Source: a virus
IMG/VR virus record: IMGVR_UViG_3300025122_000009
Span: 1-64,000 of that record
DNA: 64,000 bases
Reading direction: 5' to 3' (one strand)
The translations under genes and the position numbers were made by a program. The notes beneath the pieces are model-generated. The model searched no databases. It had not been told where the DNA came from and saw only the letters and a program-made list of their open reading frames with translations. Each line of letters starts with the position of its first letter. The first letter of the stretch is position 1. Below, one piece after another: positions 9 to 27,583 of this stretch.

Positions 9-3000
9 GTGTATTCTCAAAATGGGACTGCTTTGGAAAGGTCAACTGGTCATTATGTCCTGGGCCAAGGAGGAGCCCAGGACATTTTTAGAGATTTTAT
101 CGGCAAAATTTGGACAAAAACTCTGGGCGCTTCCGGTGATCCTCAAAAATTAACCTTTCTTAATCCTAAAATGGGTGCAGATAGTGGCGACGTTTCCACA
201 AATATGCCATGTGATATATATGTGGATGCCGCGATGCTCGTGGGTGATAGTGGGCTGCCCGAATATAGGCAAAAATTATTTATAGATCCCGACATTGAAT
301 GGCTATATGATAATATAGTCCCCGAACTTTTTCCTGACAACGATTTCAACCAACAGGTGAAAGACGTGGTGCTTCAAGCTTTGAGCGATCCCACAGAGAA
401 GCTTCTCGGGGTTGAGACAAGTATTGTTAATAAAGCTACGACGATTATTGACCAGATCCGCACTTGGTGGATGGCGGTTCTTAAATTTGAAGATGCTCCT
501 GACACTCTGCCCGAATCGGCTATATTTAATCCGCTAATTGTCTATGGGCCGTCTTATCAAGATTACAATTTTGAGATGTCTACTCCATTTAGCATCGAAA
601 ATGCTAAAAAGATGTTGGGCTTGAAACCCCTTATTGCCCACATAAACCCGGTATATAATTTTTACATTAACGAATACGAATGTCGCTTAAAACAAGATTC
701 GTTCAAAGAACAGATAATTCCGAACTTGTATGCTTTTATATCATCATATATACCTGAAGATTATGGGAACCAAGAACACAAAACGAGTAAAAAATTTGAA
801 GATTTGATTAGCTTGGGGGGCCTGCTGGAGGGGTATGATGGGTCTTCCTTGGTCTCTACGCCATACCAGTTCGGCCCGGGCCAGAATTTGGTCCCTGCGG
901 CATCGACAAATTATTTTAGAACTTGGACCACCACTCTAGAGAAGGCCGATCCCGATCAGTTATTAATTTTGGGCCCGCTGGCCAAGCGATATACTAACAT
1001 TCTTTTTCCTTTAGATAATACGAATATGCTTCAGTATTATAACAAATTAAGATTTATGTTTCCCATGTTTAATAGCTTAAAATTTTCAACAGGCATATTA
1101 ACACAGTTCGGAGATTTATTTCGGTCTTCTAAGCTGGCTCAACATTTTATGCGCTTTTATGTGAGCTATGGTGATATGGGGCTTTTTGATGCATCGCAGC
1201 ATTCTATGCAGGACATAAAAAAAGAAGAGAATTTTGTTTTACAAGAAACGGCCTTGTCTGATAATGGTTCACCTACCACTACTACAACAATTATTAATGA
1301 TACAAAAATGACAGTTATGGATCTGCGATCTTGGTTGGCCACGATGGAGTTGATAGATCTTGTACCCGATGACAATGATATGATTCGTCTTGCTATGCCG
1401 CCTAATCATGAACAGCATTTTAACGAAAACGCTATTTTCATGACTACCAATAAGAACGAGGAGATGATAAATGTTAAATCATCTAACGAACTAGAGAGAT
1501 CCATATTGGCGTCCATACTTTATGGTAAAATTAGAAAAATTGCGAAATCTCATATGCGCCATTACAGCGAGTTGTGTAAAGGAAGCGGCGCCTACTCTGA
1601 AACTTTAATGTATAAGGTAGAGAAGTGGGTCGGTGATGAAGGCCAGGGCAACAAAGTACAGACATTCTATTTTCTCAATTCGAGCAAGTTAGATGTTTTA
1701 AATTTTATCGATACACAAGTCAGCTATAATATACGCTACACCTACAAAATTGCTGCGATTCAATTGGTCGTCGGAACAGAGTATCGCTATGATATGGCGC
1801 CTCAATTTGCGTCTGCGAAATCCCAAACAGGGGGGTATATAGACTTATGGGAAAGTGCAGAGCAAAAAGCGGCGGCGGAGGCGTGGGAAAAGCAAACCGC
1901 TGGAACAACCGGTGCCGCAGGAAAGGTTGGTCCTTTTCACAATTACGCCGATCCTGCCGTGCAGGAGATCATGGTCAACTGTGAAACACCGGAACTCATA
2001 AGTCCGTCGAACCCTTACTTCGGGTTAAAAGATCCGTGCGGCTGCGCTAACATATTGATTAAGGAAAATATAAAACAAGGGACGGACTGGGGGCCCGCAC
2101 AATTCTGCGCTGCCAGCATAGATGCTTGTTGTCCGGACTTGCAACCTCTGGGTGATAGTGATTCAAATGTGCCCCCGGGTCACGGCGGCAACCCCAGCGG
2201 CCACGAGACCAGCCCGGGCACCAGCGGTGCGGCTGCAACTCCCGGCATTATGGACCTTATTGATATTGGGACCACTTTGTTAACAGCCATCCCGGTTGTT
2301 TATAAACCAGTATTTAATATTGTCGAAATTCCATATTTTACGTTAGATGGCAGGATTTTAGATAAACCTCCCATCTTCCCGGATGTTAATATTGTTCCTT
2401 ACAAGGGTATAAACAATAAATTGTTGGTTAATTTAAACAGTTCTGTTGGTGAATACAAAATGATGCCTATCGCCTTTAATGGTGAGGAGGAAAAAGAATT
2501 TGGATTGATAAGGGAGGCACAAAAGATCACCGATCCTACAGGTCCAATAACTTTTAAATCTGATGACACGATTGCACATGGGGGATTTTTTCAGGTCTAC
2601 CGAACGGACAAAAGGCCAGAAAAATATAGCGATTTTGATAAGCACCTTAAGCATGCTTTAAGCAGTACGAGCCTTGGGTTGCGTGCCGAATCGGTTGCTT
2701 TTGTGGATGACATCAAGCCAAATAAAAAATATTACTATACTTTTAGAGTTGTCGATACGCATGGGAATTCTTCTAATCCAACGGAAGTTTTTGAGGTGGA
2801 GATGATTGATGATAACGGAACGGTGTATTTTAGACAGAGGATTATAGAATTGAAACCTCTGGAAGAAAAGGCGCCCTACCTGCCATTAAAAAAATATGTC
2901 CACATTCAACCAAGTTTGGCTCAAAGAATCATTAATGAAGAAGGATTTGGTAATGCGACCTCGGCTTTCGAGTTTAGCACTTTGAATGGCAACAAAGGAC

Positions 3001-4289: not shown

Positions 4290-5396
4290 ATGGCTACCAC
4301 ATATAAATCTTTTTTAAATAATGATGTAACATCCACACGGACTTTACTTCACGAGGCAATTCCAATTACCGGAACAATTGTTTCCGGAACATATGTTGAG
4401 ACCGCTACAGCTACTTCAAATATTAAAAATTATGCCCATGCTATGTTTCAATCGGTTTATGATTATCCTTATTTAAGTTCTTCGGCTAACCATATTTTTG
4501 ATCTTACATGTGGGTATCATTCTACTTCGGCGCTTTCTAAATCTTCCGTTGGAGGTGTAGGAGGTGCTTCCTCCGATCAAAATAAGAAAATTAATCTTTA
4601 CAGCCAAATGGCACAGATGCTTGTAGGTCATGATATTAGTGGGAATATTAGGCAGTTTGACCAAGATGGGGATCTGATTGCTGGCGGTAGAAAGATGAAG
4701 GAAGTTTTCTTTATCAATTATGCGCGCCTTTTGAATAAAGACGAAATTAAAAAGGGCTCTTATTCAATAACATTTTTGACGGGAGGTACGATTCTAGCCC
4801 CTGCGAACCCATTAACCATTACAGATTATAATGCCCAAAACGAATTCCGTGTTAATTCGCCAGCGGGAGAGTATGGTATCCTTTACACCTCTTCAGCTAC
4901 TCCAACTAGTGATGCCGGAGTGGGTCATATTTATTATCAGGCCGGGATTGTTGTTGTGACTGCCTCCGTTTTTAGTGGGCTTACACCCAGCAATATTATT
5001 ACTCCTACAGGGTTTTGTCAATTTGGAGATGCCGATGGAGGATATGATAGGGAGAACATCGAAAGAGTACTAAGTGGATCTAGTATTACCGCTTCTTGTG
5101 ACGGGATAAGAAATAGGTGGCAGGCTAATGCGTACAATAACACTACAGAACTAAATTCGACCATCTATTTTGCGAGAGTTAATCACAACGACTTTAACTA
5201 TAGCACAAATCCGACTTATCTCTCTTCTAGCAAGATTGTTGTAAAAAATAATACTTTTGATATGCCCGTTTCGTATATAACCACAGTTGGTCTTTATTCA
5301 GCTGATAACGAATTGCTGGCGGTGGCCAAACTATCGGAGCCTCTTAAAAAGCAACCCGATAACGAAGTAACTCTAAGAGTTCGCCTAGACTATTAA
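4290..5396 (+). CDS. Putative baseplate/tail structural protein
   Basis: S/T/G-rich; C-terminal ITTVGLYSADNELLAVAKLSEPLKK...RLDY motif, paralogous to next gene. Confidence 0.55.
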   Translation: MATTYKSFLNNDVTSTRTLLHEAIPITGTIVSGTYVETATATSNIKNYAHAMFQSVYDYPYLSSSANHIFDLTCGYHSTSALSKSSVGGVGGASSDQNKKINLYSQMAQMLVGHDISGNIRQFDQDGDLIAGGRKMKEVFFINYARLLNKDEIKKGSYSITFLTGGTILAPANPLTITDYNAQNEFRVNSPAGEYGILYTSSATPTSDAGVGHIYYQAGIVVVTASVFSGLTPSNIITPTGFCQFGDADGGYDRENIERVLSGSSITASCDGIRNRWQANAYNNTTELNSTIYFARVNHNDFNYSTNPTYLSSSKIVVKNNTFDMPVSYITTVGLYSADNELLAVAKLSEPLKKQPDNEVTLRVRLDY

Positions 5397-6645: not shown

Positions 6646-7188
6646 ATGATCCTCGGACTTGATGTAAGCACAAGTATAACCGGTGCAACGCTTTTAGACG
6701 AAAATGGCAGCATTGTGCTGTGTGAGGCGTGGGATACAAGGAATAAGAATCGTTATGAGGATTTATTTGCCAAAGCTGATCAAATTCGTTTCAAATTATG
6801 GCAGATAGGGACTTATCATAAAATCGAAAAAATCTATATAGAACAGTCTCTTCAATCATTCCGGAGTGGGTTCTCCTCTGCACAGACACTTTCAACGCTT
6901 TCAAGGTTTAACGGGATTGTCTCGTGGCTTTGTTATAAGACACTAAAAACCAAACCAGAATATATTGCAGCTACATCAGCTAGAAAAACATGTGGCATAA
7001 AAATTGCAAGGGGCGAGAAAGCGAAAGAGGTGGTCCTAAAACATTTGCTTGACAACGAACCCTCCTTTAATGTAGAATATACTAAACATGGGAACCCAAA
7101 GCCGGGTTCTTATGACCAAGCTGATTCAATTGTAATTGCAAGAGCAGGGTATATTCTTTGTCAGAACAGCAAAAGCTCAACCTCTTAA
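6646..7188 (+). CDS. ruvC: RuvC-like Holliday junction resolvase
   Basis: ILGLDVS, IYIEQ and DQADSIVIA acidic catalytic motifs of the RuvC/RNase H fold. Confidence 0.8.
   Translation: MILGLDVSTSITGATLLDENGSIVLCEAWDTRNKNRYEDLFAKADQIRFKLWQIGTYHKIEKIYIEQSLQSFRSGFSSAQTLSTLSRFNGIVSWLCYKTLKTKPEYIAATSARKTCGIKIARGEKAKEVVLKHLLDNEPSFNVEYTKHGNPKPGSYDQADSIVIARAGYILCQNSKSSTS
7049..7078 (+). promoter_or_regulatory. Sigma70-like promoter inside ruvC, upstream of primase
   Basis: TTGACA-18 nt-TAGAAT. Confidence 0.5.
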
Positions 7189-8096
7189 GTGATGTCCTTG
7201 GCTGGCATTATCCTGCTGGCACAGAATATGTATTCCATTGTAAATTCTGTGATCATCACAAAAAGAAACTTTCCGTCAATATAGAAAAGAACAAATATAA
7301 ATGTTGGATCTGTGACACCAGCGGAAATGACATTCGTTATCTGGTTCGACGCTTTGGTGCTCGTAATCAATTGGATCAATGGGATGTGTTGACCAACCGT
7401 GTCAACTTATCTGGTTTCGATAACTTATTTGAGGAAGAAGAGGAAATTGTTGAAGAGACTATTAAACTTCCAGATGAATTCGTTTCTTTGGCTAATCGCA
7501 ACGTGCCTTATTCTGCTCTCATTCCAAAACAATACTTGAGGGGTCGAGGGATCACAAAGGAAGATATCTTAAAATGGAAGATTGGTTATTGTCCCAGCGG
7601 AGAATATGAGGGGAGAATTATTATTCCTTCTTTTAACATGGATGGTTATGTAAACTATTTTGTTGGCCGCTCTTATGGAGATAAGTTCCCAAAATATAAG
7701 AACCCTCCTGTTTCAAAGAATATCGTTTTCAATCATTTATATATTGATTGGTCCAAAGATATTATTTTGGTTGAGGGGATATTCGATGCGATTGTGGCTG
7801 GTGATAACGCCATTCCCATTCTCGGCTCGACTTTGAGGGAAGATGGAAAGTTGTTTCAAGAAGCCGTAAAAAACGATACTGTTGTATATCTGGCACTAGA
7901 CCCGGATATGGAACAGAAGACGCGAAAGCTTATTCGAAAGCTGCTTTCTTATAACATAAAAGTGTATAAAATTGACGTATCACCGTATGCGGATGTTGGC
8001 GAGATGACAAAAGAAGAGTTTCAAAAGAGGAAAGTTGCTGCGGCGTTTTTAAATGAAGAATACTACTTATTGTACGAAGTTATAAACTCTTTATAG
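7158..8096 (+). CDS. DNA primase (Zn finger + TOPRIM), TTG start
   Basis: CKFCDHH...CWIC zinc finger; RIIIP, PKYKNP, LVEGIFDA, ALDPD and DVGEM TOPRIM motifs. Confidence 0.88.
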   Translation: MSEQQKLNLLSDVLGWHYPAGTEYVFHCKFCDHHKKKLSVNIEKNKYKCWICDTSGNDIRYLVRRFGARNQLDQWDVLTNRVNLSGFDNLFEEEEEIVEETIKLPDEFVSLANRNVPYSALIPKQYLRGRGITKEDILKWKIGYCPSGEYEGRIIIPSFNMDGYVNYFVGRSYGDKFPKYKNPPVSKNIVFNHLYIDWSKDIILVEGIFDAIVAGDNAIPILGSTLREDGKLFQEAVKNDTVVYLALDPDMEQKTRKLIRKLLSYNIKVYKIDVSPYADVGEMTKEEFQKRKVAAAFLNEEYYLLYEVINSL

Positions 8097-8107: not shown

Positions 8108-8218
8108 ATGAGTGGTTTTATTCACAGGTTACTAAACTTATTCAATTCCCAACATTGCTGTTGTTGCTGCGGTTGCTGCGAGTGCCATGATTGCCTCGGA
8201 AAGTGCAACGCCAATTAA
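8108..8218 (+). CDS. Unannotated 36-aa Cys-rich microprotein (metallothionein-like)
   Basis: MSGFIHRLLNLFNSQHCCCCCGCCECHDCLGKCNAN; AGGAGG at 8095-8100; ACTACTTA motif at 8062-8069; fills the gap between two genes. Confidence 0.65.
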   Translation: MSGFIHRLLNLFNSQHCCCCCGCCECHDCLGKCNAN

Positions 8219-8232
8219 AAAGGAAACAAAAA

Positions 8233-10020
8233 ATGTCATTGTCACAGAAACAAATTAGAAAGATTATTCGAGAAGAACTTAAGAATATAAAGAATATTCA
8301 AAAGGTTATCCCACACCCCGCATTTCGAAAGTCCAAATGCACAGTTTATCTAAAAGAATCCAATGGTAAAATGAAAACAGTTTCATTTAATTCTCTTCGC
8401 AAGCAACAGAGAAAGGGTGTCTTTAGCGAACAACAAGTTCACGATATTTTAAAATCTTCTTTTGATCATGACATGCGTATGTTCAATCGTTACAGCGCTG
8501 CTTACACAAATTTAAGCCAACATATGATTTCTGAAGGTCTTATCGCTGAGAATGGAAAAATTACCAAGAAAGGGCGTCTTTTAGAGAGGAAAGAAAGAGG
8601 CGTCGTCTTGGTTGAAAGTGACATGCGAAAGTATGCCGCTAGTCTTATTTTGGAGCAAGAGGAAGAGGAAGAAATAGATGTTCAATCCATCAAAACCACA
8701 GGCCAGAAAGTTTTCGGCGCTATTGGCAAAGGTTTGAAAAAAGTTGGCAGTTTCTTGATGACCCCTTTTAAAGCATGGAAATGGTTTAAAGACAAGGTGT
8801 GGGAGGTGGTTTCTGGACTTTTTGCCAAGATTGGTCAGATGATTAGTGCTTTTGCACAAAAATACAACTTAGAGTGGTTACAGAATACCGTGTCGGGAAT
8901 TGAGAAGGTTATAGCTGCTGTCAAGAAATTTTGTGACAAAAATAAATGGGTCAAAATAATGTGCAATATGGTGCTCTCTGTCGCGCTCGCTTTTGCTATA
9001 AAAGCTGCTATCGGAGCAATTATGGCCGCAATGGGTGTCACTGCCTCTGGGCTGCTGATATCAGCCGCTGCTGGCACGGCATGTGCGGCAGGAGCCGTCG
9101 CTGGCGCTCTTGGTGAGGGCCCAGCACCCAAAAGCTTGTTAAAAGAAGTGGGCGCTTCTGATTTGTGCAACTTGGCAGCAACGGCAGCCACATCCACCAC
9201 AAACAACACTTTAAATTTGGTCAAGGGTGTCATTAAGTATCTGGCATCTGAAGAGGGCAACCTTGGTGCCGCCGCACAACAGGCCCTGGAGTTTGTCGAT
9301 AAATATCACGAGACGTTGACAGCAGCGGGTAAAGATATAGGCGTTGGAAGCGGTGCCAAATCAAAAGAGGTTCTTGAAAATCTTGGCAAAGCCGCCCGGG
9401 CGTGTAAGACTGAAGGTGCCCAGATGGTGGCGAAGGCTGTTGGGTTTATAAAAGAATATGGACTTGGATTAAAGGCCACCGCCGGCGCCGCCGACGCCCA
9501 CTCCTCCGGAGCCGCAGACACGACGTCGGATGCTTTTTTAGAGTTGGGCAGAGTGGCGATGTCAGACACCCAAGACAATTATCAAAAACTGTTCAATTTG
9601 GCAAAAGACATCCAGGGAGAGGGTTGGGATCCAAAGACTTTCGTTAACAGCGTTGTCAAGATGGGGTCCAATCTTGGCTTTGATTCCGTTCCGAAGTGGG
9701 CTGAATCTGCAGCAGAAGCTATGAAGGCCAGTGGCGAAATTTCTGCTGGATCTTTTGAAGCCGGCGAAGCCGCCGCAGAAGGGGCGACCACGTTTAAAGA
9801 CTGGATGCAAGAGATCGGGGGCCTCAAGAATCTGCTTGGACCGGCCGGCTTTGAGGGTAGACAGGCTGAATTCATCGAGGCCGCCAAGGCATTCAAGGAT
9901 TCAAAAACGGGAGAGGTGGGCTTCATGGCTTGGAAGGCGGCTGGCCAGCCCGCTTTGAAAGGGGCAATATTACAGGAAAATTTTAATCGGATACAGAGAT
10001 TAGCAGGAGTGTTGGCATGA
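8233..10020 (+). CDS. Large leader-bearing protein with hydrophobic Ala/Gly-rich core; putative internal head/ejection protein
   Basis: Likely start ATG 8233 (AAGGA RBS): MSLSQKQIRKIIREELK; long hydrophobic hairpin; C-terminal RIQRLAGVLA. Confidence 0.55.
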   Translation: MSLSQKQIRKIIREELKNIKNIQKVIPHPAFRKSKCTVYLKESNGKMKTVSFNSLRKQQRKGVFSEQQVHDILKSSFDHDMRMFNRYSAAYTNLSQHMISEGLIAENGKITKKGRLLERKERGVVLVESDMRKYAASLILEQEEEEEIDVQSIKTTGQKVFGAIGKGLKKVGSFLMTPFKAWKWFKDKVWEVVSGLFAKIGQMISAFAQKYNLEWLQNTVSGIEKVIAAVKKFCDKNKWVKIMCNMVLSVALAFAIKAAIGAIMAAMGVTASGLLISAAAGTACAAGAVAGALGEGPAPKSLLKEVGASDLCNLAATAATSTTNNTLNLVKGVIKYLASEEGNLGAAAQQALEFVDKYHETLTAAGKDIGVGSGAKSKEVLENLGKAARACKTEGAQMVAKAVGFIKEYGLGLKATAGAADAHSSGAADTTSDAFLELGRVAMSDTQDNYQKLFNLAKDIQGEGWDPKTFVNSVVKMGSNLGFDSVPKWAESAAEAMKASGEISAGSFEAGEAAAEGATTFKDWMQEIGGLKNLLGPAGFEGRQAEFIEAAKAFKDSKTGEVGFMAWKAAGQPALKGAILQENFNRIQRLAGVLA

Positions 10021-10247
10021 AAATTACAAAGACAAGATTAAAGCAAATTATTCAAGAGGTTTTAGAAGAGGACTTTGGATCCCCAGGCCAGCCCGATTGG
10101 GAAGCCGAAGCGACAGCGATTGAACAATATCCTGAAACGCCCTCTTTGGAAGAGGGGGTGAGAGAACTTCTCGACCAGTGGCCTGACAAGCGGCACCCTT
10201 ATTATCAGGATTTGGAAAATCTTTATACTCAATTTACAACAGGATAA
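10017..10247 (+). CDS. Leader-bearing small acidic protein
   Basis: MKITKTRLKQIIQEVLEE N-terminus; ATGA overlap with previous gene. Confidence 0.7.
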   Translation: MKITKTRLKQIIQEVLEEDFGSPGQPDWEAEATAIEQYPETPSLEEGVRELLDQWPDKRHPYYQDLENLYTQFTTG

Positions 10248-10253
10248 ATTAGC

Positions 10254-10691
10254 ATGAAACTTACAAGATCACATCTCAGGCAACTTATTCGAGAAGTAAT
10301 ACAAAAAGAGGGAATTGGGGATTGGCTGGATCGCATGAGGGCTGGCGAAGAATCCTCCGGAGCAGCGTATCGTGAAAAACTGGCGGCGCACGAAAAAGAA
10401 AAAGAAGAAAGGAAGAAGGGGAAGAAGAAAAGCTTTTTCGGATCAGAGTTCGGAAGCGGCCTCGAAAAAGCTTTAAGAGAAGAGGAAGAAGAAATGTCAG
10501 AGGCAAAACGTGCACGGCCGGCTGAATTTAAGTCGGGAGATAAAGTGACCCACGAGGAATACGGGACAGGCACCGTAACTCACCCGGGAGCGTCTACTGA
10601 TGCTACAGGGGGTCGAGAGGTTTCTGTTAAGTGGGATGATCCGGATATCGGATCCCGAAGAGCAATTGAGGCGAACCTTAAAAAGAAATAA
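10254..10691 (+). CDS. Leader-bearing protein with C-terminal SH3/Tudor-like domain
   Basis: MKLTRSHLRQLIREVIQKE leader; FKSGDKVTHEEYGTGTV...VSVKWDD. Confidence 0.65.
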   Translation: MKLTRSHLRQLIREVIQKEGIGDWLDRMRAGEESSGAAYREKLAAHEKEKEERKKGKKKSFFGSEFGSGLEKALREEEEEMSEAKRARPAEFKSGDKVTHEEYGTGTVTHPGASTDATGGREVSVKWDDPDIGSRRAIEANLKKK

Positions 10692-10703
10692 AGGAGAAGT
10701 GTC

Positions 10704-10832
10704 ATGAGATTGAGGGATATGGATCTAGAGAGAACAATTGCCAGAATCGATGAAAATATTTCGGATTGGCATTCAATGGCAGAACTGGAAGAAGCTTATG
10801 AGCTTTGGACATGGCACCCAGGAATGGGATAA
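10704..10832 (+). CDS. Unannotated 42-aa protein
   Basis: AAGGAG RBS; MRLRDMDLERTIARIDENISDWHSMAELEEAYELWTWHPGMG; fills the intergenic gap. Confidence 0.55.
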   Translation: MRLRDMDLERTIARIDENISDWHSMAELEEAYELWTWHPGMG

Positions 10833-10866
10833 TTTAAACTAGGAGAACAAAAATAGGAATATTATT

Positions 10867-11103
10867 ATGAAGCTCGCAAAATCAAAACTTAAACAGGTTA
10901 TCAAAGAAGAGCTAGAAAATATCTTGAGTGAGAAAGAAGATGATAAGTGGATCCAGGATGCCGAAGAAGATATTGAGAAGCGTGGGACTGAAGGCGTCTG
11001 TACAGGAGACAAGTTCGGGAGCGACAGTTGCCCTCCTGACAGCAAAAGATATAATTTAGCAAAGACATTTCGCAAGATGGCGAAAAAGAGGAAGAAAAAA
11101 TGA
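10867..11103 (+). CDS. Leader-bearing small protein with basic C-terminus
   Basis: MKLAKSKLKQVIKEELENILSE leader; KWIQ motif, two Cys, LAKTFRKMAKKRKKK tail. Confidence 0.7.
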   Translation: MKLAKSKLKQVIKEELENILSEKEDDKWIQDAEEDIEKRGTEGVCTGDKFGSDSCPPDSKRYNLAKTFRKMAKKRKKK

Positions 11104-11540
11104 AGCTAACTAAGATGAGACTTAAGCAAATTATCAAAGAAGAGATTAAAAGGGTGTTGCATGAAAGTTGGGGTGATACAGGCTTACGTGGAATGGCCGG
11201 CACCGACCCCGATTTCAGCATGACGACGGGCATGAAACCCAAGGGCGAACGTTCTCAAGCCGTAACCGGGTTGGAGCCAGGACGCCAACGCAGTGGTGAA
11301 ACATACAAGAAGAAGGGCCGAGATCTTAAGAGCCGTGATAAAGACGCAACTTTCGCTCGGAACAGCATTAAGCTCGATCTAAAAGACCGTGGCGCGGACA
11401 TTGATGCTGTGCCTGGAGCCTTCATGCGCCTCCTCGGCCATCTGGAGACAAACGAAGTCGATGAAGCAGTGGCCTTGGCCATCGAAATGGGCGCTCAAGA
11501 CGACGGAGATCTGGCGAGTGAATTTGACATGTACACTTAA
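11100..11540 (+). CDS. Leader-bearing hypothetical protein
   Basis: MKLTKMRLKQIIKEEIKRVLHE leader. Confidence 0.7.
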   Translation: MKLTKMRLKQIIKEEIKRVLHESWGDTGLRGMAGTDPDFSMTTGMKPKGERSQAVTGLEPGRQRSGETYKKKGRDLKSRDKDATFARNSIKLDLKDRGADIDAVPGAFMRLLGHLETNEVDEAVALAIEMGAQDDGDLASEFDMYT

Positions 11541-11564
11541 GAATAATGGTCAAGGAATTCTAAT

Positions 11565-11912
11565 ATGAAGCTTACAAAATCAAGACTTAAACAAATTATT
11601 AAAGAAGAAATAGAACACGTTTTAAAAGAACTCGGCGCTGGCTATGGCGGAACAAACCCAGAGTTTACGGCAGCAGTGGCGCGAGAACCCGCCACAGCAG
11701 ACAAGTGCGCCGACTTGAGGGCGCAGCTTGACGATTCGCCAACGGCATCTGATGCGGAGTGGATGAAAACAAAAAGAGAACTTAAACGCTTAGGGTGTGA
11801 AGATCGGGGCCCCGAGTGGGGGGCGGGACGTCCGAAGAAAAGCTCTATCCCTTATTCCGAACGCGACTTCATCATGGGACATACGGGCGGCTATCGCGCT
11901 GCGGAGGAGTAA
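11565..11912 (+). CDS. Leader-bearing hypothetical protein
   Basis: MKLTKSRLKQIIKEEIEHVLKE leader; AAGGA RBS. Confidence 0.7.
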   Translation: MKLTKSRLKQIIKEEIEHVLKELGAGYGGTNPEFTAAVAREPATADKCADLRAQLDDSPTASDAEWMKTKRELKRLGCEDRGPEWGAGRPKKSSIPYSERDFIMGHTGGYRAAEE

Positions 11913-11917
11913 AACGT

Positions 11918-12127
11918 ATGAAACTCACCAAATCAAGACTTAAGCAAATTATCAAAGAAGAAATAAGGTCGATGATTTATGAATGACCTGAGAGAGATGC
12001 TTCCCGTGAGGAAGAAGATGTTATATTTATAGGGGAAAAAGAAGACCACCCGGGCCAATCATGTGACGAGGCCCATCCAGAGTATAAATCCCATGAAGAA
12101 TGGGAAACCAGCCAAAAAACTTCTTGA
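11918..12127 (+). CDS. Unannotated leader-bearing ORF with in-frame TGA at 11984-11986 (candidate selenoprotein/readthrough, or nonsense pseudogene)
   Basis: MKLTKSRLKQIIKEEIRSMIYE*PERDASREEEDVIFIGEKEDHPGQSCDEAHPEYKSHEEWETSQKTS*; GGAGGAG RBS; frame stays open 46 codons past the TGA. Confidence 0.55.
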
Positions 12128-12152
12128 CATTTGCCTTCATTTATTAGATAAT
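12124..12152 (+). promoter_or_regulatory. Sigma70-like promoter for the Mre11-Rad50 gene
   Basis: TTGACA-17 nt-GATAAT. Confidence 0.6.
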
Positions 12153-12184
12153 AGAACAGACGAATTAATACCCACGAGGTTTGA

Positions 12185-15100
12185 ATGAAGTTTGCCCATA
12201 TCGCAGATACCCATATTAAAAATCTAAAATACCATCATGAATATAAAATCGTATTTGAGAAATTATATGACCACTTGCGAAAAGAAAAAGTTGATTATAT
12301 AATTCACTGTGGAGATATTGCACATACAAAAACACAATTATCTCCAGAATTTGTGGAGATGTGTACAGATTTTTTTAGAAGCTTGGCAGACATAGCGCCC
12401 ACCTATGTTATTCTCGGCAATCATGACGGCAATCTAAAGAACTCAAGTAGACAAGACGCGATCACTCCGATTGTGGATGCCCTAGAACATCCCAACTTAC
12501 ATTTGTTGAAAGATTCTGGCGAAGTAATATTGAACGACGATTTTGCTTTAAATGTTCTTTCAGTCTTTGATATGGATAACTGGTGTGATCCTTCGGATTA
12601 TAACAAAGTCAACATTGCTCTTTACCACGGGTCAATTAGTGGCTGTAAAACAGATTTAGATTGGGTGATGGAACATGGAGAAAATGATATATCTGTATTC
12701 GAAGAATTTGATTATGCCTTCCTAGGCGATATTCACAAGACCAACCAAATACTTGATGAGGAAGAAAAAATTCGTTATGCCGGTTCTACTGTCCAGCAGA
12801 ACCATGGAGAAACAAATGATAAGGGATTTTTGATATGGGATATCAAAGATAAAAATACTTTCACCTGTAATCATATCGAACTTTTAAACCCCAAACCCTT
12901 CATCACCATCGAGCTTACTCCAAAGGGTAGAATTCCCAAAGGCACCCAGGTCCAAGAAGGGGCACGCTTAAGACTTGTGACAAATAATAATTTGCCTCTC
13001 CACACGATGCGAAAAGCAGTAGATGTAGCGAAGGTGAAATATAAACCAGAAACCATTACATTTTTAAATCGCTCGGCTGGGGATAGAGGAGACGTTAAAC
13101 ATCTTACTCACGGACTAGTCGAAGAAGATCTCAGAGACATAACTGTACAGGAAGAATTCATTAGTGAGTATGTTAAGGACTACGAAGCAGACGATGAAAC
13201 TTTAGAAAAAGTTTATGAATTGAATAGAAAATATAATGCCATGGCCGAAGCGGAAGAAGAGGTCTCAAGAAATATTAACTGGAAATTGAAAAAATTTGAG
13301 TGGGACAACTTATTTAACTATGGAGAGGGCAATAGTGTTGACTTTACTAATCTAAATGGAATTGTTGGAATATTTGGTAAAAACTATTCAGGAAAATCGA
13401 GCATTATTGACGGTATCCTTTATACTCTTTTCAATTCTACTTCTAAGAATGAAAGGAAAAATTTAAATATTATCAATCAAAACAAAGAAAACTGCAGCGG
13501 CAAATTAGAACTCACCATTGGTGATGACTTGTATACCATAGAAAGAACTACTGAGAAATATATTAAAAAGCTTAAGGGAGATGAAACTTTAGAAGCTAAA
13601 ACCAATATTGAATTTAATAGCTGCAATTCTGTCACCGGAGAGGTGGTTAGCCATAACGGGCTGACACGAAATGGCACAGATAAAAATATTCGCAAATATC
13701 TAGGCACCTTAGACGATTTTCTCATGACCTCGATGTCCTCTCAATTGGGTTCTCTTGCGTTCATTAACGAGGGATCGACACGGCGCAAAGAATTATTAGC
13801 CAAGTTCCTTGATCTGGAAATTTTTGAAAGAAAATATCGCATGGCCAAAGAGGATATTGTCGATTTGCGAGGCGCCCTTAAAAGTTTGGAGGGCAAAGAG
13901 TTCGATGAAGAAACAAAAAAAGCAGCGAAAGACTTGGTGTGGAATCAGGAACAGACAGAAGAGCACGAGGCAAAATGTGCACAATATAAAGAAACAATTG
14001 AAGAATTACAAAGCGAAGTAGGTGAGTTGGATGAAAAGATAAGCTCAATCCCAGCAGAGATTATAAACATTATTGATGTCAAAGAATCTATTTCTAAGCA
14101 TGAAGAGTTAATAGAAAGCCTGAAGGAAGTAAACAAAGAGGTTTCAAAAAAGATTGACTTAAATCAAATTTATTACGAGAAGATTGAAGCTTTTTTGGAG
14201 ACATTTGATATTCAAGAATATCGAGGCAAAAAGGATGTGATTATTGCCAAGAGGGCCGAACTTACACAGTTCATTGCCGATCTGGGGATAGAAAGTGATA
14301 AGAAAACTCGGTACATCAAAAAAGAAAGACTCCTTAATGAGGTGCCGTGTGGTTCTGAATTTTCCCATTGTAAATTCATCAAAGATGCCTATAAAGCTGT
14401 GGGGTTAATGACCGAGAGCACGCAGAAGATCGCTGATTTGAGCATCGCTATTAACCAAAAGGGCGAAGAAATTCGGGGGATGGACTGCGATCAGGTAGAT
14501 GATTATATTGACAAGTATACTCAGGTACTCGAAAAGAAAAACACAACAGCTACGGAGTTGGCCAACGATCAGATCAATTTTGAAAAGAACAAGGCTGAAT
14601 TGGCAAGGCAAGATATTTCTTTGGTTGAGTTACGCAAAAAAGAAGGAGAATACGAAGAAAACCGAGAAACTATTGAAAACTTGGAGACTTTAAACAAGGA
14701 GAAGAAAGATAAAAATAAGCGGCTTAGAAAACACCAACAAGAGCTTAAAGCGTGTAATGAAGAAATACTAGAATTTTATAAAGAGCACGGATCTCTAGAA
14801 CAGAAGTTAAACAACCTTCTAGAGCAGCAGAGAGAGTTGGCCGAGTTGCGTGAAGAATATGCTGCTTATGATTTGTTTATGCGCTGTATGCACAGTAACG
14901 GTATTTCTTATGATATTATTAAAAAGAAGCTCCCCATTGTTAATGAAGAGATTTCTAAGGTCTTGGCCAATGTCGTTGATTTTGAAGTCTTTTTTGATGA
15001 CGATGGTAAAAAGCTAGACATATACCTTAAGCACCCCAAGCATGATGCTCGCCCTATTGAAATGGGTTCCGGAGCAGAAAAAACAATTGCTGCTATGGCT

Positions 15101-15337
15101 ATGCGGTTAGCGTTGTTATCAGTTTCCAGTCTACCTAAATCTAATATTTTTATTCTCGATGAGCCAGCGACTGCTTTAGATGCTGAAAATATGGACGGCT
15201 TCGTTAGGATACTAGAAATGGTTAAGAATTATTATCAGACAGTTTTTCTTATTTCTCACGTGGATAGCTTGAAGGATATCGCAGATATAACAATTGATAT
15301 TGACAAAAAAGATGGTTATGCATTTGTTAATCATTAA
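12185..15337 (+). CDS. Fused SbcD/Mre11 nuclease - SbcC/Rad50 ATPase (gp47-gp46-like)
   Basis: HIADTH, HCGD, LGNHD, LGDIH phosphoesterase motifs; Walker A GKNYSGKS; coiled coil with central Cys pair; SGAEK signature; FILDE Walker B; ISH. Confidence 0.92.
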   Translation: MKFAHIADTHIKNLKYHHEYKIVFEKLYDHLRKEKVDYIIHCGDIAHTKTQLSPEFVEMCTDFFRSLADIAPTYVILGNHDGNLKNSSRQDAITPIVDALEHPNLHLLKDSGEVILNDDFALNVLSVFDMDNWCDPSDYNKVNIALYHGSISGCKTDLDWVMEHGENDISVFEEFDYAFLGDIHKTNQILDEEEKIRYAGSTVQQNHGETNDKGFLIWDIKDKNTFTCNHIELLNPKPFITIELTPKGRIPKGTQVQEGARLRLVTNNNLPLHTMRKAVDVAKVKYKPETITFLNRSAGDRGDVKHLTHGLVEEDLRDITVQEEFISEYVKDYEADDETLEKVYELNRKYNAMAEAEEEVSRNINWKLKKFEWDNLFNYGEGNSVDFTNLNGIVGIFGKNYSGKSSIIDGILYTLFNSTSKNERKNLNIINQNKENCSGKLELTIGDDLYTIERTTEKYIKKLKGDETLEAKTNIEFNSCNSVTGEVVSHNGLTRNGTDKNIRKYLGTLDDFLMTSMSSQLGSLAFINEGSTRRKELLAKFLDLEIFERKYRMAKEDIVDLRGALKSLEGKEFDEETKKAAKDLVWNQEQTEEHEAKCAQYKETIEELQSEVGELDEKISSIPAEIINIIDVKESISKHEELIESLKEVNKEVSKKIDLNQIYYEKIEAFLETFDIQEYRGKKDVIIAKRAELTQFIADLGIESDKKTRYIKKERLLNEVPCGSEFSHCKFIKDAYKAVGLMTESTQKIADLSIAINQKGEEIRGMDCDQVDDYIDKYTQVLEKKNTTATELANDQINFEKNKAELARQDISLVELRKKEGEYEENRETIENLETLNKEKKDKNKRLRKHQQELKACNEEILEFYKEHGSLEQKLNNLLEQQRELAELREEYAAYDLFMRCMHSNGISYDIIKKKLPIVNEEISKVLANVVDFEVFFDDDGKKLDIYLKHPKHDARPIEMGSGAEKTIAAMAMRLALLSVSSLPKSNIFILDEPATALDAENMDGFVRILEMVKNYYQTVFLISHVDSLKDIADITIDIDKKDGYAFVNH

Positions 15338-26983: not shown

Positions 26984-27583
26984 ATGCCTAAACAACTTCT
27001 CAGAGAATACTATGAATTGTGTGAGGGTGGAATTTGCCAAGATTTGTTAACAGAGGAAGAAAAGCGCTTTGTTAAAAATGGCGGCATGATTTTGTCTGGA
27101 AAACTTCAAGAAGCCGAGGCTCAAAATGGAAATGGCCGCGTTTATCCGATTGCCACACTTCAGAGAGAAATGAAAAATTACCAAAAAGTAATAGACGACC
27201 GCCGCGCCCTAGGCGAGTTAGATCATCCGGATGATTCAGTTATTAATTTAAAGAACGCTTCTCACTTGGTCACTGAAGCGTGGTGGGATGGAAATAGCGT
27301 GATGGGCAAAGTACGAATTTTGGACACTCCTTCTGGGGGTGTGTTAAAATCTCTAGTTAATTCAGGAGTTTCTCTCGGCATTTCCTCCCGAGGCTTAGGT
27401 TCTGTGACCGAAGCTAACGGGCGCACACTGGTGGAAGATGATTTTCAATTGATATGTTTTGATTTTGTTTCAGAACCTTCCACCACCGGCGCTTACATGG
27501 CTCTTCAAGAGGGGGCTGCTAAACAGATTTTTTCGAAGACAGATAGAATTAATAGGGCGCTCAACAGCGTACTGGAGAAATAG
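26984..27583 (+). CDS. Prohead protease (gp21-like)
   Basis: NGRVYP, ALGELDHP, GISSRGLGS, FDFVSEPST motifs. Confidence 0.93.
   Translation: MPKQLLREYYELCEGGICQDLLTEEEKRFVKNGGMILSGKLQEAEAQNGNGRVYPIATLQREMKNYQKVIDDRRALGELDHPDDSVINLKNASHLVTEAWWDGNSVMGKVRILDTPSGGVLKSLVNSGVSLGISSRGLGSVTEANGRTLVEDDFQLICFDFVSEPSTTGAYMALQEGAAKQIFSKTDRINRALNSVLEK

What the first reader, a model, noticed from the sequence alone, without database searches (positions are those of the whole stretch)
11918..12127. Hidden array member with in-frame UGA and SECIS-like hairpin: candidate phage selenoprotein
Seen: this ORF is missing from the ORF track. It has a GGAGGAG RBS and a full leader (MKLTKSRLKQIIKEEIRSMIYE), then TGA at 11984-11986, then 46 more sense codons of acidic protein-like sequence (including HPGQSCDEAHP) running up to the next promoter. 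A hairpin CTTCC-CGTGA-GGAAG (12000-12014) puts a GU-containing loop 18 nt after the UGA. Known: bacterial SECIS elements are small G-containing apical loops shortly 3' of the UGA. Inference: the UGA is read as Sec by host SelB. Because it sits right after the predicted IYE cleavage site, maturation would expose an N-terminal selenocysteine on a virion-packaged peptide. The stem is only 5 bp, so a nonsense mutation or sequencing error remains possible.
Basis: partly seen in the sequence, partly recalled or inferred. Interest (0 to 1): 0.8.

Follow-up and report, generated by a model that had tools for sequence, protein, structure and literature searches.

The report
Phage UGA-plus-hairpin recoding cassette
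A small gene of an uncultured marine T4-like phage runs through an internal UGA "stop" that relatives keep together with a co-varying RNA hairpin of the bacterial selenocysteine-insertion type, so it is probably read as selenocysteine, which has not been described for a phage.

Summary
ATG 11918, 22 leader codons, TGA 11984-86, 46 open codons and the 5-bp hairpin at 12000-12014 are all there. The TGA also stands in contigs of three other sequencing runs, so it is not an assembly error.

It is not a dead gene. I found seven sites of the same kind (this one plus six on other marine phage or metagenome contigs). Each has Glu(-x)-TGA-CCN-GAR/CAC and, in six of seven, a hairpin at +13..+32 with an NGUNN loop. 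Six keep a long open frame after the TGA. Five share one hairpin register: 23 of 25 cells pair, and no shuffle of 500 reached that. The geometry matches E. coli fdhF (G23 U24).

The ~20-codon cassette sits between the capsid-targeting leader and at least three unrelated cargos. Close homologs lack it.

Evidence on the residue is mixed. One full-length homolog has Cys at the UGA column, the closest homolog shows Trp (its caller's genetic code is unknown), and a possibly related junction has Arg.

Best reading: SelB-type selenocysteine insertion (about 0.5). Main rival: hairpin-assisted leaky readthrough. The host and its Sec machinery are unknown.

This scan's earlier notes report similar cassettes in other marine phages.

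The parts
11903..11909 (+). Shine-Dalgarno GGAGGAG, 8 nt before the ATG
   Evidence: read directly
11918..11983 (+). 22-codon leader of the MKLTKSRLKQIIKEE family, ending I-Y-E. Putative capsid-targeting propeptide with a protease site after Glu.
   Evidence: The fetched loci hold 266 distinct leader ORFs. A gp21-type protease is in the genome. Cleavage itself is inferred.
11984..11986 (+). in-frame TGA followed by CCT (UGA-C context); the recoded codon
12000..12014 (+). 5-bp hairpin CUUCC/GGAAG with loop CGUGA. It spans positions +17..+31 counted from the U of UGA, with G23 and U24 in the loop.
   Evidence: covariation; fdhF comparison; base rate
11987..12124 (+). 46 sense codons after the TGA: an acidic linker, then the cargo module
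   Evidence: P0001 and P0124 are homologous to the very C-terminus
12047..12103 (+). His-x4-Cys-x3-His-x5/6-His-x2-Trp module, probably metal binding. It is shared with many leader proteins.
   Evidence: alignments
12125..12127 (+). terminal TGA, lying inside the -35 box of the next promoter
   Evidence: L047 has the same arrangement
12124..12152 (+). sigma-70-like promoter TTGACA-17-GATAAT ahead of the fused SbcD-SbcC gene
8191..12127 (+). tandem array of leader-plus-cargo genes; this ORF is its last member
27053..27505 (+). T4 gp21-type prohead protease (Pfam Peptidase_S77, 99.2 bits)

Best explanation
The ORF 11918-12127 is an intact member of the phage's leader-plus-cargo array. Its UGA belongs to a portable recoding cassette of about 20 codons. 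The cassette holds an (L/I)-x-E motif, then UGA, then CCN-GAR, then a 4-8-bp hairpin whose NGUNN loop lies about 20-26 nt from the U of UGA.

Most likely the host's SelB-tRNA(Sec) binds this hairpin and inserts selenocysteine at the UGA. That would give a 69-residue precursor: leader, Sec, acidic linker and a His/Cys module. Ribosomes that terminate instead would release only the 22-residue leader.

The gp21-type prohead protease would then cut after I-Y-E. The packaged peptide would begin with Sec-Pro-Glu.

Shown: the UGA is real; UGA, frame and hairpin are conserved; the hairpin covaries; the geometry is fdhF-like; the cassette is optional and occurs with different cargos.

Inferred: SelB dependence, the identity of the inserted residue, the cleavage, and packaging into the virion.
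For: 1. The TGA is real. It stands in contigs of three other runs.

2. TGA is otherwise an ordinary stop here. It ends 21 of 93 + strand ORFs, which together cover 94.8% of the contig. So there is no genome-wide reassignment.

3. There are seven sites of one kind: window 11984, L047 1119 (identical in L048), L124 3064, L069 3958, L091 1602, L130 6016 and L049 600. All are TGA-CC. All are preceded by Glu within 0-1 codon. Six have 46-94 open codons after the TGA; L049 has 12.

4. Of 266 distinct leader ORFs, only 3 are shorter than 40 aa, and all 3 are such sites. Of 9 distinct leader ORFs that end in TGAC, 7 are these sites, all TGACC.

5. G000 and L047 are close relatives: their SbcCD proteins are 816/922 identical. 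Both keep TGA-CCT, although the downstream linker differs in length (46 versus 94 codons).

6. Hairpin covariation. Five sites share one register (+17..+21 paired with +27..+31, loop CGUG[A/C]). 23 of 25 cells pair, 92% against 67.9% in shuffles, reached by 0 of 500 shuffles. The covariation score is 0.80 against 0.235, again 0 of 500. Three of 5 pairs change on both sides. Slid controls give 36-52%.

7. L069 and L124 have unrelated 7-8-bp stems centred 2 nt upstream, with loops GGUCU and AGUAU. All seven loop regions (L047's stem is imperfect) carry GU at positions 2-3, although the codons beneath differ (Arg, Gly-Ser, Lys-Tyr).

8. Base rate. A stem of at least 5 bp with an NGUNN pentaloop starting at +20..22 occurs at 0.136% of positions (2348 of 1,725,720). 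Five of 7 sites have it. With at least 4 bp the rate is 0.347% and 6 of 7 sites have it. These criteria were chosen after seeing the data.

9. E. coli fdhF read from K-12 has UGA-C, an upper stem at 15-31 and the loop GGUC at 22-25. The window's G23 and U24 are at the same positions.

10. A covariance model built from the five class-A sites finds L069, which was not in the training set, at E = 0.052. Nothing else matched in 513 kb.

11. Cys homolog. P0137 aligns over its full length with the L047 protein (BLASTP E 7e-11), placing Cys opposite the UGA: LYE-T-X-P against LYE-S-C-P. L023 and L024 carry CGPC at the junction.

12. The downstream module is genuine coding sequence. P0001 and P0124 are homologous to the last residues of the window's ORF.
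Against: 1. The closest homolog, P0001, has Trp at the column. If that is a real TGG, it fits readthrough better than Sec.

2. Seven of the 121 proteins read for the L124 cargo family (120 family members plus P0001) have Y-E-R-P at a similarly placed insertion. None of them has Cys there.

3. The sense residues seen at the column (W, R, C) are all single-base neighbours of TGA. W and R are the transition products. This looks like an unconstrained residue and not like a selected Cys.

4. P0138, the closest sense homolog of L047, has E-T-P with no residue at the column. P0132 has Val and P0123 has Ala.

5. Homologs without the cassette exist (P0124, and most of the L124 cargo family). The residue therefore cannot be catalytic for the cargo.

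6. The window's hairpin has only 5 bp and is no more stable than shuffled sequence. L047's copy has a C.A mismatch and L130's has 4 bp. L049 stops 12 codons after the TGA.

7. No Rfam family matched. bSECISearch and deep-Sep could not be run.

8. No tRNA is found on the 87.8-kb contig. No selD or tRNA-Sec is found in G000 or in four related records. The host is unknown.

9. There are only seven sites. Several are related to each other, so they represent about three independent hairpin types.
Confidence: 0.5

Rival explanations
1. SelB-independent programmed readthrough. The UGA-C context and the downstream hairpin would make termination by RF2 inefficient. A near-cognate tRNA, mainly tRNA-Trp, would then read UGA in a fixed minority of ribosomes. 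The cassette would act as a dosage device: much free leader (or N-terminal domain) and a little full-length cargo, as with the Qbeta A1 protein.
For: All seven sites are UGA followed by C. By recalled knowledge this is the weakest bacterial termination context. P0001 has Trp at the column, and a possibly related junction has Arg; both are near-cognate neighbours of UGA. The cassette is optional and occurs with unrelated cargos, as expected of a regulatory module and not of an active-site residue.
Against: I recall no bacterial precedent for hairpin-stimulated UGA readthrough without SelB. A generic roadblock hairpin gives no reason for GU at loop positions 2-3 in three unrelated hairpin sequences, nor for the fdhF-like position. 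A full-length homolog has Cys at the column.
Confidence: 0.3
2. The UGA is a true stop. The gene product would be the 22-residue leader peptide, or leader plus domain in L069, L091 and L130. The hairpin would have another role, such as mRNA stability or processing. The downstream frame would be a relic, or expressed in some other way.
For: L049 keeps TGA and a perfect 6-bp hairpin but has only 12 codons before a TAA. TGA is a normal stop elsewhere in the genome.
Against: In six of seven sites, 46-94 codons stay open in the TGA's own frame, starting at the very next codon, with no start codon. By my own arithmetic, at about 5.8% stops per random codon, 94 open codons have p of about 0.004 and 46 have p of about 0.06. 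The downstream parts carry conserved protein modules with all invariant residues and the same C-terminus as intact homologs. No terminator-like T run follows the hairpin.
Confidence: 0.1
3. Recent nonsense mutation (TGG to TGA) or sequencing error. The gene would be a pseudogene specific to this contig.
For: TGA is one transition away from TGG, and P0001 has Trp.
Against: The TGA stands in contigs of three other runs. A relative with 89% identical SbcCD keeps it although its linker differs. Five further contigs carry the same TGA-CCN junction, and four of them (all but L130, 4 bp) a hairpin of at least 5 bp. The downstream frame shows no decay.
Confidence: 0.03

Closest known systems
Bacterial selenoprotein genes with an in-ORF SECIS read by SelB (prototype E. 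coli fdhF)
   Same: In-frame UGA followed by C. A small stem-loop lies just downstream inside the coding frame. The stem ends at +31 and G23 U24 sit in the apical loop (fdhF read). The general definition comes from passages of PMC12013277.
   Different: The gene belongs to a phage. The protein is a short acidic capsid-cargo peptide and not an oxidoreductase. The UGA sits at a leader/cargo junction inside an optional, movable cassette. The stems are shorter (4-8 bp) with no bulged U. Cys homologs are rare, and Trp and Arg are also seen.
Poxvirus selenoproteins (molluscum contagiosum and fowlpox glutathione peroxidases)
   Same: Virus-encoded genes that rely on the host's Sec machinery. In fowlpox the SECIS lies within the coding region (passages of PMC8310308).
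   Different: They are eukaryotic viruses with captured cellular GPx genes and a eukaryotic SECIS/SBP2 system. That 2021 review names no phage.
Qbeta A1 read-through protein (leaky UGA read as Trp; recalled, no call)
   Same: A phage uses a UGA to make a short main product and a minor C-terminally extended virion protein.
   Different: I recall no conserved GU-loop hairpin at a fixed distance in Qbeta. Here the extension is the cargo of a capsid-targeting leader.
T4 internal proteins with a capsid targeting sequence
   Same: A conserved N-terminal propeptide of 10-20 residues sits on highly diverse cargo. It is cleaved after Glu by the gp21-type prohead protease (passages of PMC3012670 and PMC5694885). 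The protease gene is present here.
   Different: The leader sequence is different. The genes form long tandem arrays. No recoding is known in T4 internal-protein genes.

Membership tests
Bacterial-type selenoprotein gene (UGA + SECIS + SelB) | In-frame UGA with the reading frame continuing | tested here: met
   22 codons, TGA, 46 codons. The TGA is real in reads.
Bacterial-type selenoprotein gene (UGA + SECIS + SelB) | UGA conserved at the same column in homologs | tested here: met
   Seven sites on seven distinct contigs. The ortholog in a phage with 89% identical SbcCD keeps it.
Bacterial-type selenoprotein gene (UGA + SECIS + SelB) | Stem-loop immediately 3' of the UGA with G (GU) in a small apical loop at the fdhF-like distance, supported by covariation | tested here: met
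   Caveats: z = +0.64 for the window's copy alone, L047 has a mismatch, there is no Rfam hit, and bSECISearch was not available.
Bacterial-type selenoprotein gene (UGA + SECIS + SelB) | Cysteine at the UGA column in homologs | tested here: inconclusive
   Cys in P0137. CGPC at the junction in L023 and L024, but the alignment is ambiguous. Against this: Trp in P0001, Arg in the YERP junctions, Val, Ala or nothing in others.
Bacterial-type selenoprotein gene (UGA + SECIS + SelB) | Host (or phage) has selA, selB, selC, selD | not testable with these tools
   The host is unknown. No tRNA is on the contig. No selD or tRNA-Sec is in G000 or four relatives; the weak hits are tRNA-Leu, Ile and others. 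selA and selB were not searched.
Bacterial-type selenoprotein gene (UGA + SECIS + SelB) | Selenium incorporated at the UGA | not testable with these tools
   Needs 75Se labelling or mass spectrometry.
T4-type capsid-targeted internal protein | Short conserved N-terminal propeptide shared by unrelated cargos | tested here: met
   Seven leader ORFs in the window array. 266 distinct ones in the fetched loci.
T4-type capsid-targeted internal protein | gp21-type prohead protease and a cleavage motif ending in Glu | tested here: met
   PF03420 at 27053-27505, 99.2 bits. I-Y-E lies directly before the UGA. Cleavage itself was not tested.
T4-type capsid-targeted internal protein | Protein present in the virion | not testable with these tools
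   Needs virion proteomics.
Programmed UGA readthrough (Qbeta A1 type) | Weak termination context and a near-cognate residue in sense homologs | tested here: inconclusive
   UGA-C in 7 of 7 sites. Trp in P0001 and Arg in YERP, but also Cys in P0137.

The most novel reading that the evidence does not exclude
Marine T4-like phages own a mobile selenocysteine-insertion cassette: a protease site, UGA, Pro-Glu and a minimal SelB hairpin in about 60 nt. They paste it between a capsid-targeting leader and many different cargos. After prohead maturation, the packaged and probably injected peptides would begin with a free N-terminal selenocysteine. That would make a virus-built, host-SelB-dependent class of selenopeptides.
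Probability: 0.3. Interest if true: 0.9.

Novelty: new variant of a known kind. Interest (0 to 1): 0.75.

Why it matters
Site-specific UGA recoding by a SECIS hairpin is known in cells and, among viruses, only in two poxviruses (passages of the 2021 review PMC8310308). My full-text searches listed no paper whose title or abstract describes a phage-encoded selenoprotein; I read none of the listed papers for this.

If the cassette is read as Sec, several things follow. Phages draw on the host's selenium machinery. Selenoproteomes of marine metagenomes are undercounted, because gene callers drop these ORFs. A 60-nt natural module would exist that can put Sec at a chosen junction of any protein.

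If it is read through as Trp, it would be a new hairpin-dependent bacterial readthrough signal that sets the dose of packaged proteins.

Either way the ORF is a real gene that standard annotation misses, and the question can be settled with a simple reporter assay.

Tried and rejected
Genome-wide TGA reassignment (code 4 or 25) is rejected. TGA ends 21 of 93 ORFs, and long genes are intact under table 11.

A phage suppressor tRNA or tRNA-Sec was not found. ARAGORN finds no tRNA in the window or the whole contig. The weak tRNA-Sec model hits in three complete relatives are tRNA-Leu(UAA) and other ordinary tRNAs.

Other candidate UGA genes in the 87.8-kb contig: none credible.

Searches that found nothing useful:
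- blastn and tblastn against GenBank phages
- GTDB genome contigs
- Rfam (5 weak matches, none a SECIS)
- Pfam on seven readthrough proteins
- PHROGs on three other array cargos, 8191-10020, 10254-10691 and 11565-11912
- two leader-plus-TG(N)CC patterns in IMG/VR (0 hits)
- the covariance model on five large relatives (0 hits)
- word-index protein searches with the downstream part, which returned only P0001

Pattern scans of IMG/VR gave L130 as the only new cassette. The other 8 and 3 stretches were chance matches.

I asked whether the protein collection holds code-4 (TGA=W) translations of four TGA-bearing genes. None was found. This is weak, because under code 4 two of them would also read through their terminal TGA.

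A weak tblastn similarity just upstream of SbcCD in L007 and L010 turned out to be a membrane protein, not a homolog.

Full report
**What is there**

The window is the first 64 kb of an 87.8-kb IMG/VR virus record. It is estimated 48% complete and comes from marine metagenomes. All genes lie on the + strand. A greedy set of 93 ORFs covers 94.8% of the contig. The record carries a T4 gp21-type prohead protease.

A tandem array lies between a primase (7158-8096) and a fused SbcD-SbcC gene (12185-15337). Its genes all begin with the same leader of about 20 residues and then diverge. The finding is the last array member.

- GGAGGAG at 11903-09
- ATG at 11918, then 22 leader codons ending I-Y-E
- TGA at 11984-86
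- 46 sense codons
- TGA at 12125-27, lying inside the -35 box of a TTGACA-17-GATAAT promoter
- hairpin CTTCC / CGTGA / GGAAG at 12000-12014

**Is the TGA real, and is TGA a stop in this phage?**

Contigs of four public runs were laid on 11500-12500. X1 may be the source. X2, X3 and X4 come from other samples and studies, although they share the year and habitat. All four cover 11984-86. No difference there appears among the rows shown (42 rows were not shown).

TGA ends 21 of the 93 ORFs, often in ATGA overlaps. No tRNA is found on the contig. There is therefore no general reassignment and no sequencing error.

**The same junction recurs**

Scans with the readthrough protein, with P0001 and with DNA patterns brought in 145 loci. 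In them I found six further sites of the same build:
- L047 (identical in L048): L-Y-E-T, TGA, CCT CAC, then 94 open codons
- L124: L-Y-E, TGA, CCA GAA, then 73 open codons
- L069: L-E-E-Q, TGA, CCG GAA, then 48 open codons
- L091: L-E-E-G, TGA, CCG GAG, then 48 open codons
- L130: L-E-E-Q, TGA, CCA GAG, then 50 open codons
- L049: L-E-E-Q, TGA, CCA GAG, then 12 codons and a TAA

Among 266 distinct leader ORFs only three are shorter than 40 residues, and all three are such sites. Ordinary TGA stops of leader genes are mostly followed by A (59 of 80). TGA-C is rare (8 of 80). After L130 was added (L049 too is among these rows), 7 of 9 distinct TGAC-ended leader ORFs are these sites, and all seven read TGACC.

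L047 is the positional ortholog. It sits before an SbcCD gene that is 816/922 identical to the window's. Its post-TGA part is twice as long, however, and is alike only in the C-terminal motif.

**The downstream frames code for protein**

The window's downstream part ends in a module with the pattern His-x4-Cys-x3-His-x5/6-His-x2-Trp. Its four His/Cys residues are invariant in seven aligned sequences. The module closes many intact leader proteins.

P0001 (66 aa) and P0124 (49 aa) match the window's ORF to its last residues.

L124's downstream part is a different, very common cargo. 1006 proteins match it at E<=1, and the window's own gene 10867-11103 is one of them. L091 and L130 carry a third cargo.

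The cassette is therefore not tied to one protein. It is also optional. P0124 joins leader and module directly, without the roughly 22 codons that hold I-Y-E, the UGA and the hairpin. Most relatives of the L124 cargo likewise lack its roughly 20-codon linker.

**The hairpin**

On its own the window's 5-bp stem is unremarkable (z = +0.64). Comparison changes this.

Five sites (window, L047, L091, L130, L049) align without gaps and share one register: positions 17-21 pair with 27-31, counting from the U of UGA, and the loop is CGUG[A/C]. Results:
- 23 of 25 cells pair, 92% against 67.9% in shuffles; 0 of 500 shuffles reached this
- covariation score 0.80 against 0.235; 0 of 500 shuffles reached this
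- pair 18-30 shows five different standard pairs
- slid controls pair in 36-52% of cells

The misses are a C.A in L047 and an A.G in L130.

L069 and L124 have unrelated stems of 7-8 bp centred two positions upstream, with loops GGUCU and AGUAU.

All seven loop regions carry G-U at positions 2-3, although the codons beneath differ. A stem of at least 5 bp with an NGUNN pentaloop starting at +20..22 occurs at 0.136% of all positions of the fetched DNA. Five of 7 sites have it, and 6 of 7 do at 4 bp or more. I chose this definition after seeing the sites, and the sites amount to about three independent hairpin types. An earlier, looser definition gave a base rate of 2.4%, with 4 of the 5 sites then known passing.

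I also ran the scan in reverse. Starting from any TGA with such a hairpin and open frames on both sides, it returned ten places. Six were these sites and four were off-frame noise.

A covariance model of the five class-A sites found L069 at E = 0.052 and nothing else in 513 kb. It found nothing in five large relatives.

**Comparison with a known SECIS**

I read E. coli K-12 fdhF from the RefSeq record. It has UGA followed by C, an upper stem at 15-31 and the loop G22 G23 U24 C25. The window has UGA followed by C, a stem at 17-31 and the loop C22 G23 U24 G25 A26. That G23 and U24 are SelB's contacts is recalled knowledge, not from a call. The general rule, a stem-loop immediately downstream of the Sec UGA, comes from passages of PMC12013277.

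**Which residue?**

HMMER against 1.84 billion representatives gave 20 proteins at E<=0.001.

P0137 (115 aa) aligns end to end with the L047 readthrough protein (E 7e-11). It puts Cys opposite the UGA: L-Y-E-S-C-P against L-Y-E-T-X-P. L023 and L024 have C-G-P-C at the junction, but BLASTP places it in a gap.

Against Sec:
- P0001, the closest relative, has Trp between identical flanks.
- Seven of the 121 proteins read for the L124 cargo family (120 family members plus P0001) have Y-E-R-P in an insertion at a similar place.
- P0138 has nothing at the column. P0132 has Val and P0123 has Ala.

Trp, Arg and Cys are all one base away from TGA. This suggests that the column is homologous but that the residue is not strongly constrained.

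P0001 comes from a 947-nt ENA contig. Whether its caller used code 4 is unknown. The 11 residues over the hairpin are identical to the window's, which would be odd if the hairpin were no longer needed there. This is inference.

**Mechanism**

A conserved UGA, a conserved frame and a co-varying hairpin at a fixed distance show that the stop is recoded or deliberately leaky.

SelB-type Sec insertion is the only bacterial mechanism I know that uses such a hairpin. It alone predicts the loop G-U and the fdhF-like position. I give it about 0.5.

Hairpin-assisted readthrough by tRNA-Trp explains the Trp and Arg variants and the optional nature of the cassette. I give it about 0.3.

A true stop with an unrelated hairpin gets about 0.1. 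A contig-specific pseudogene is unlikely, at about 0.03.

In all seven sites an (L/I)-x-E motif ends 0-1 residue before the UGA. T4-type prohead proteases cut after Glu, and T4 internal proteins carry propeptides of 10-20 residues (passages of PMC5694885 and PMC3012670). This is inferred.

**What could not be done**

The host is unknown. Neither G000 nor four related records encode selD or tRNA-Sec, and selA and selB were not searched. So any Sec insertion would rest on the host. bSECISearch was not available.

**Novelty**

Full-text searches for selenoprotein + bacteriophage + SECIS (30 papers, 15 listed) and for selenocysteine + phage-encoded + UGA (5 papers) listed none whose title or abstract describes a phage selenoprotein; I did not read the listed papers for this. 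Passages of a 2021 review of viral recoding name only two poxviruses.

This scan's own earlier notes report the same kind of cassette in other marine phage windows. They are unchecked AI notes. I used them only as a lead to look for Cys homologs.

Noticed in passing
window 12185-15337: A single 1050-aa ORF fuses an SbcD/Mre11-like nuclease to an SbcC/Rad50-like ATPase (PHROGs 100 and 77). The fusion is kept over its full length in 15 related IMG/VR loci at 30-54% identity.
   Followed up: partly
window 12047-12103; also L023, L032, L046, L049, L126, L128, P0123-P0140: A short module, His-x4-Cys-x3-His-x5/6-His-x2-Trp, closes many otherwise unrelated leader proteins. In L032 it lies inside a protein with an HExxH motif. 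It has no Pfam family. It looks like a small metal-binding knuckle.
   Followed up: partly
window 10867-11103 and L124 3067-3285: A highly conserved basic cargo module has two Cys and a Lys/Arg-rich tail. It has about 1000 relatives of 52-167 aa and is attached to many different N-terminal parts.
   Followed up: partly
P0047, P0064, P0070, P0079, P0082, P0114, P0119: An optional insertion of about 18 residues containing Y-E-R-P sits at the same place as L124's Y-E-UGA-P-E linker. It could be a sense-codon (CGA or AGA) derivative of the cassette. The DNA was not seen.
   Followed up: no
L049 591-640: Here the cassette keeps TGA and a perfect 6-bp hairpin, but the frame ends 12 codons later at a TAA. 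Its homologs L091 and L130 continue for 48-50 codons.
   Followed up: partly
window 12124-12129 and L047 near 1404: The gene's terminal TGA lies inside the TTGACA -35 box of the next promoter in both the window and its relative L047.
   Followed up: no
window 11568-11635 and 11908-11975: Summed contig depth over the two leader stretches reaches hundreds to thousands in four marine runs, against 4-25 over the cargo parts. Many contigs also branch off at the leader ends. The leader is therefore shared by very many genes or phages in these samples.
   Followed up: no
L023/L024 about 4830-4845: A leader protein carrying the same C-terminal His/Cys module has a thioredoxin-like C-G-P-C directly after the leader's final Glu.
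   Followed up: partly
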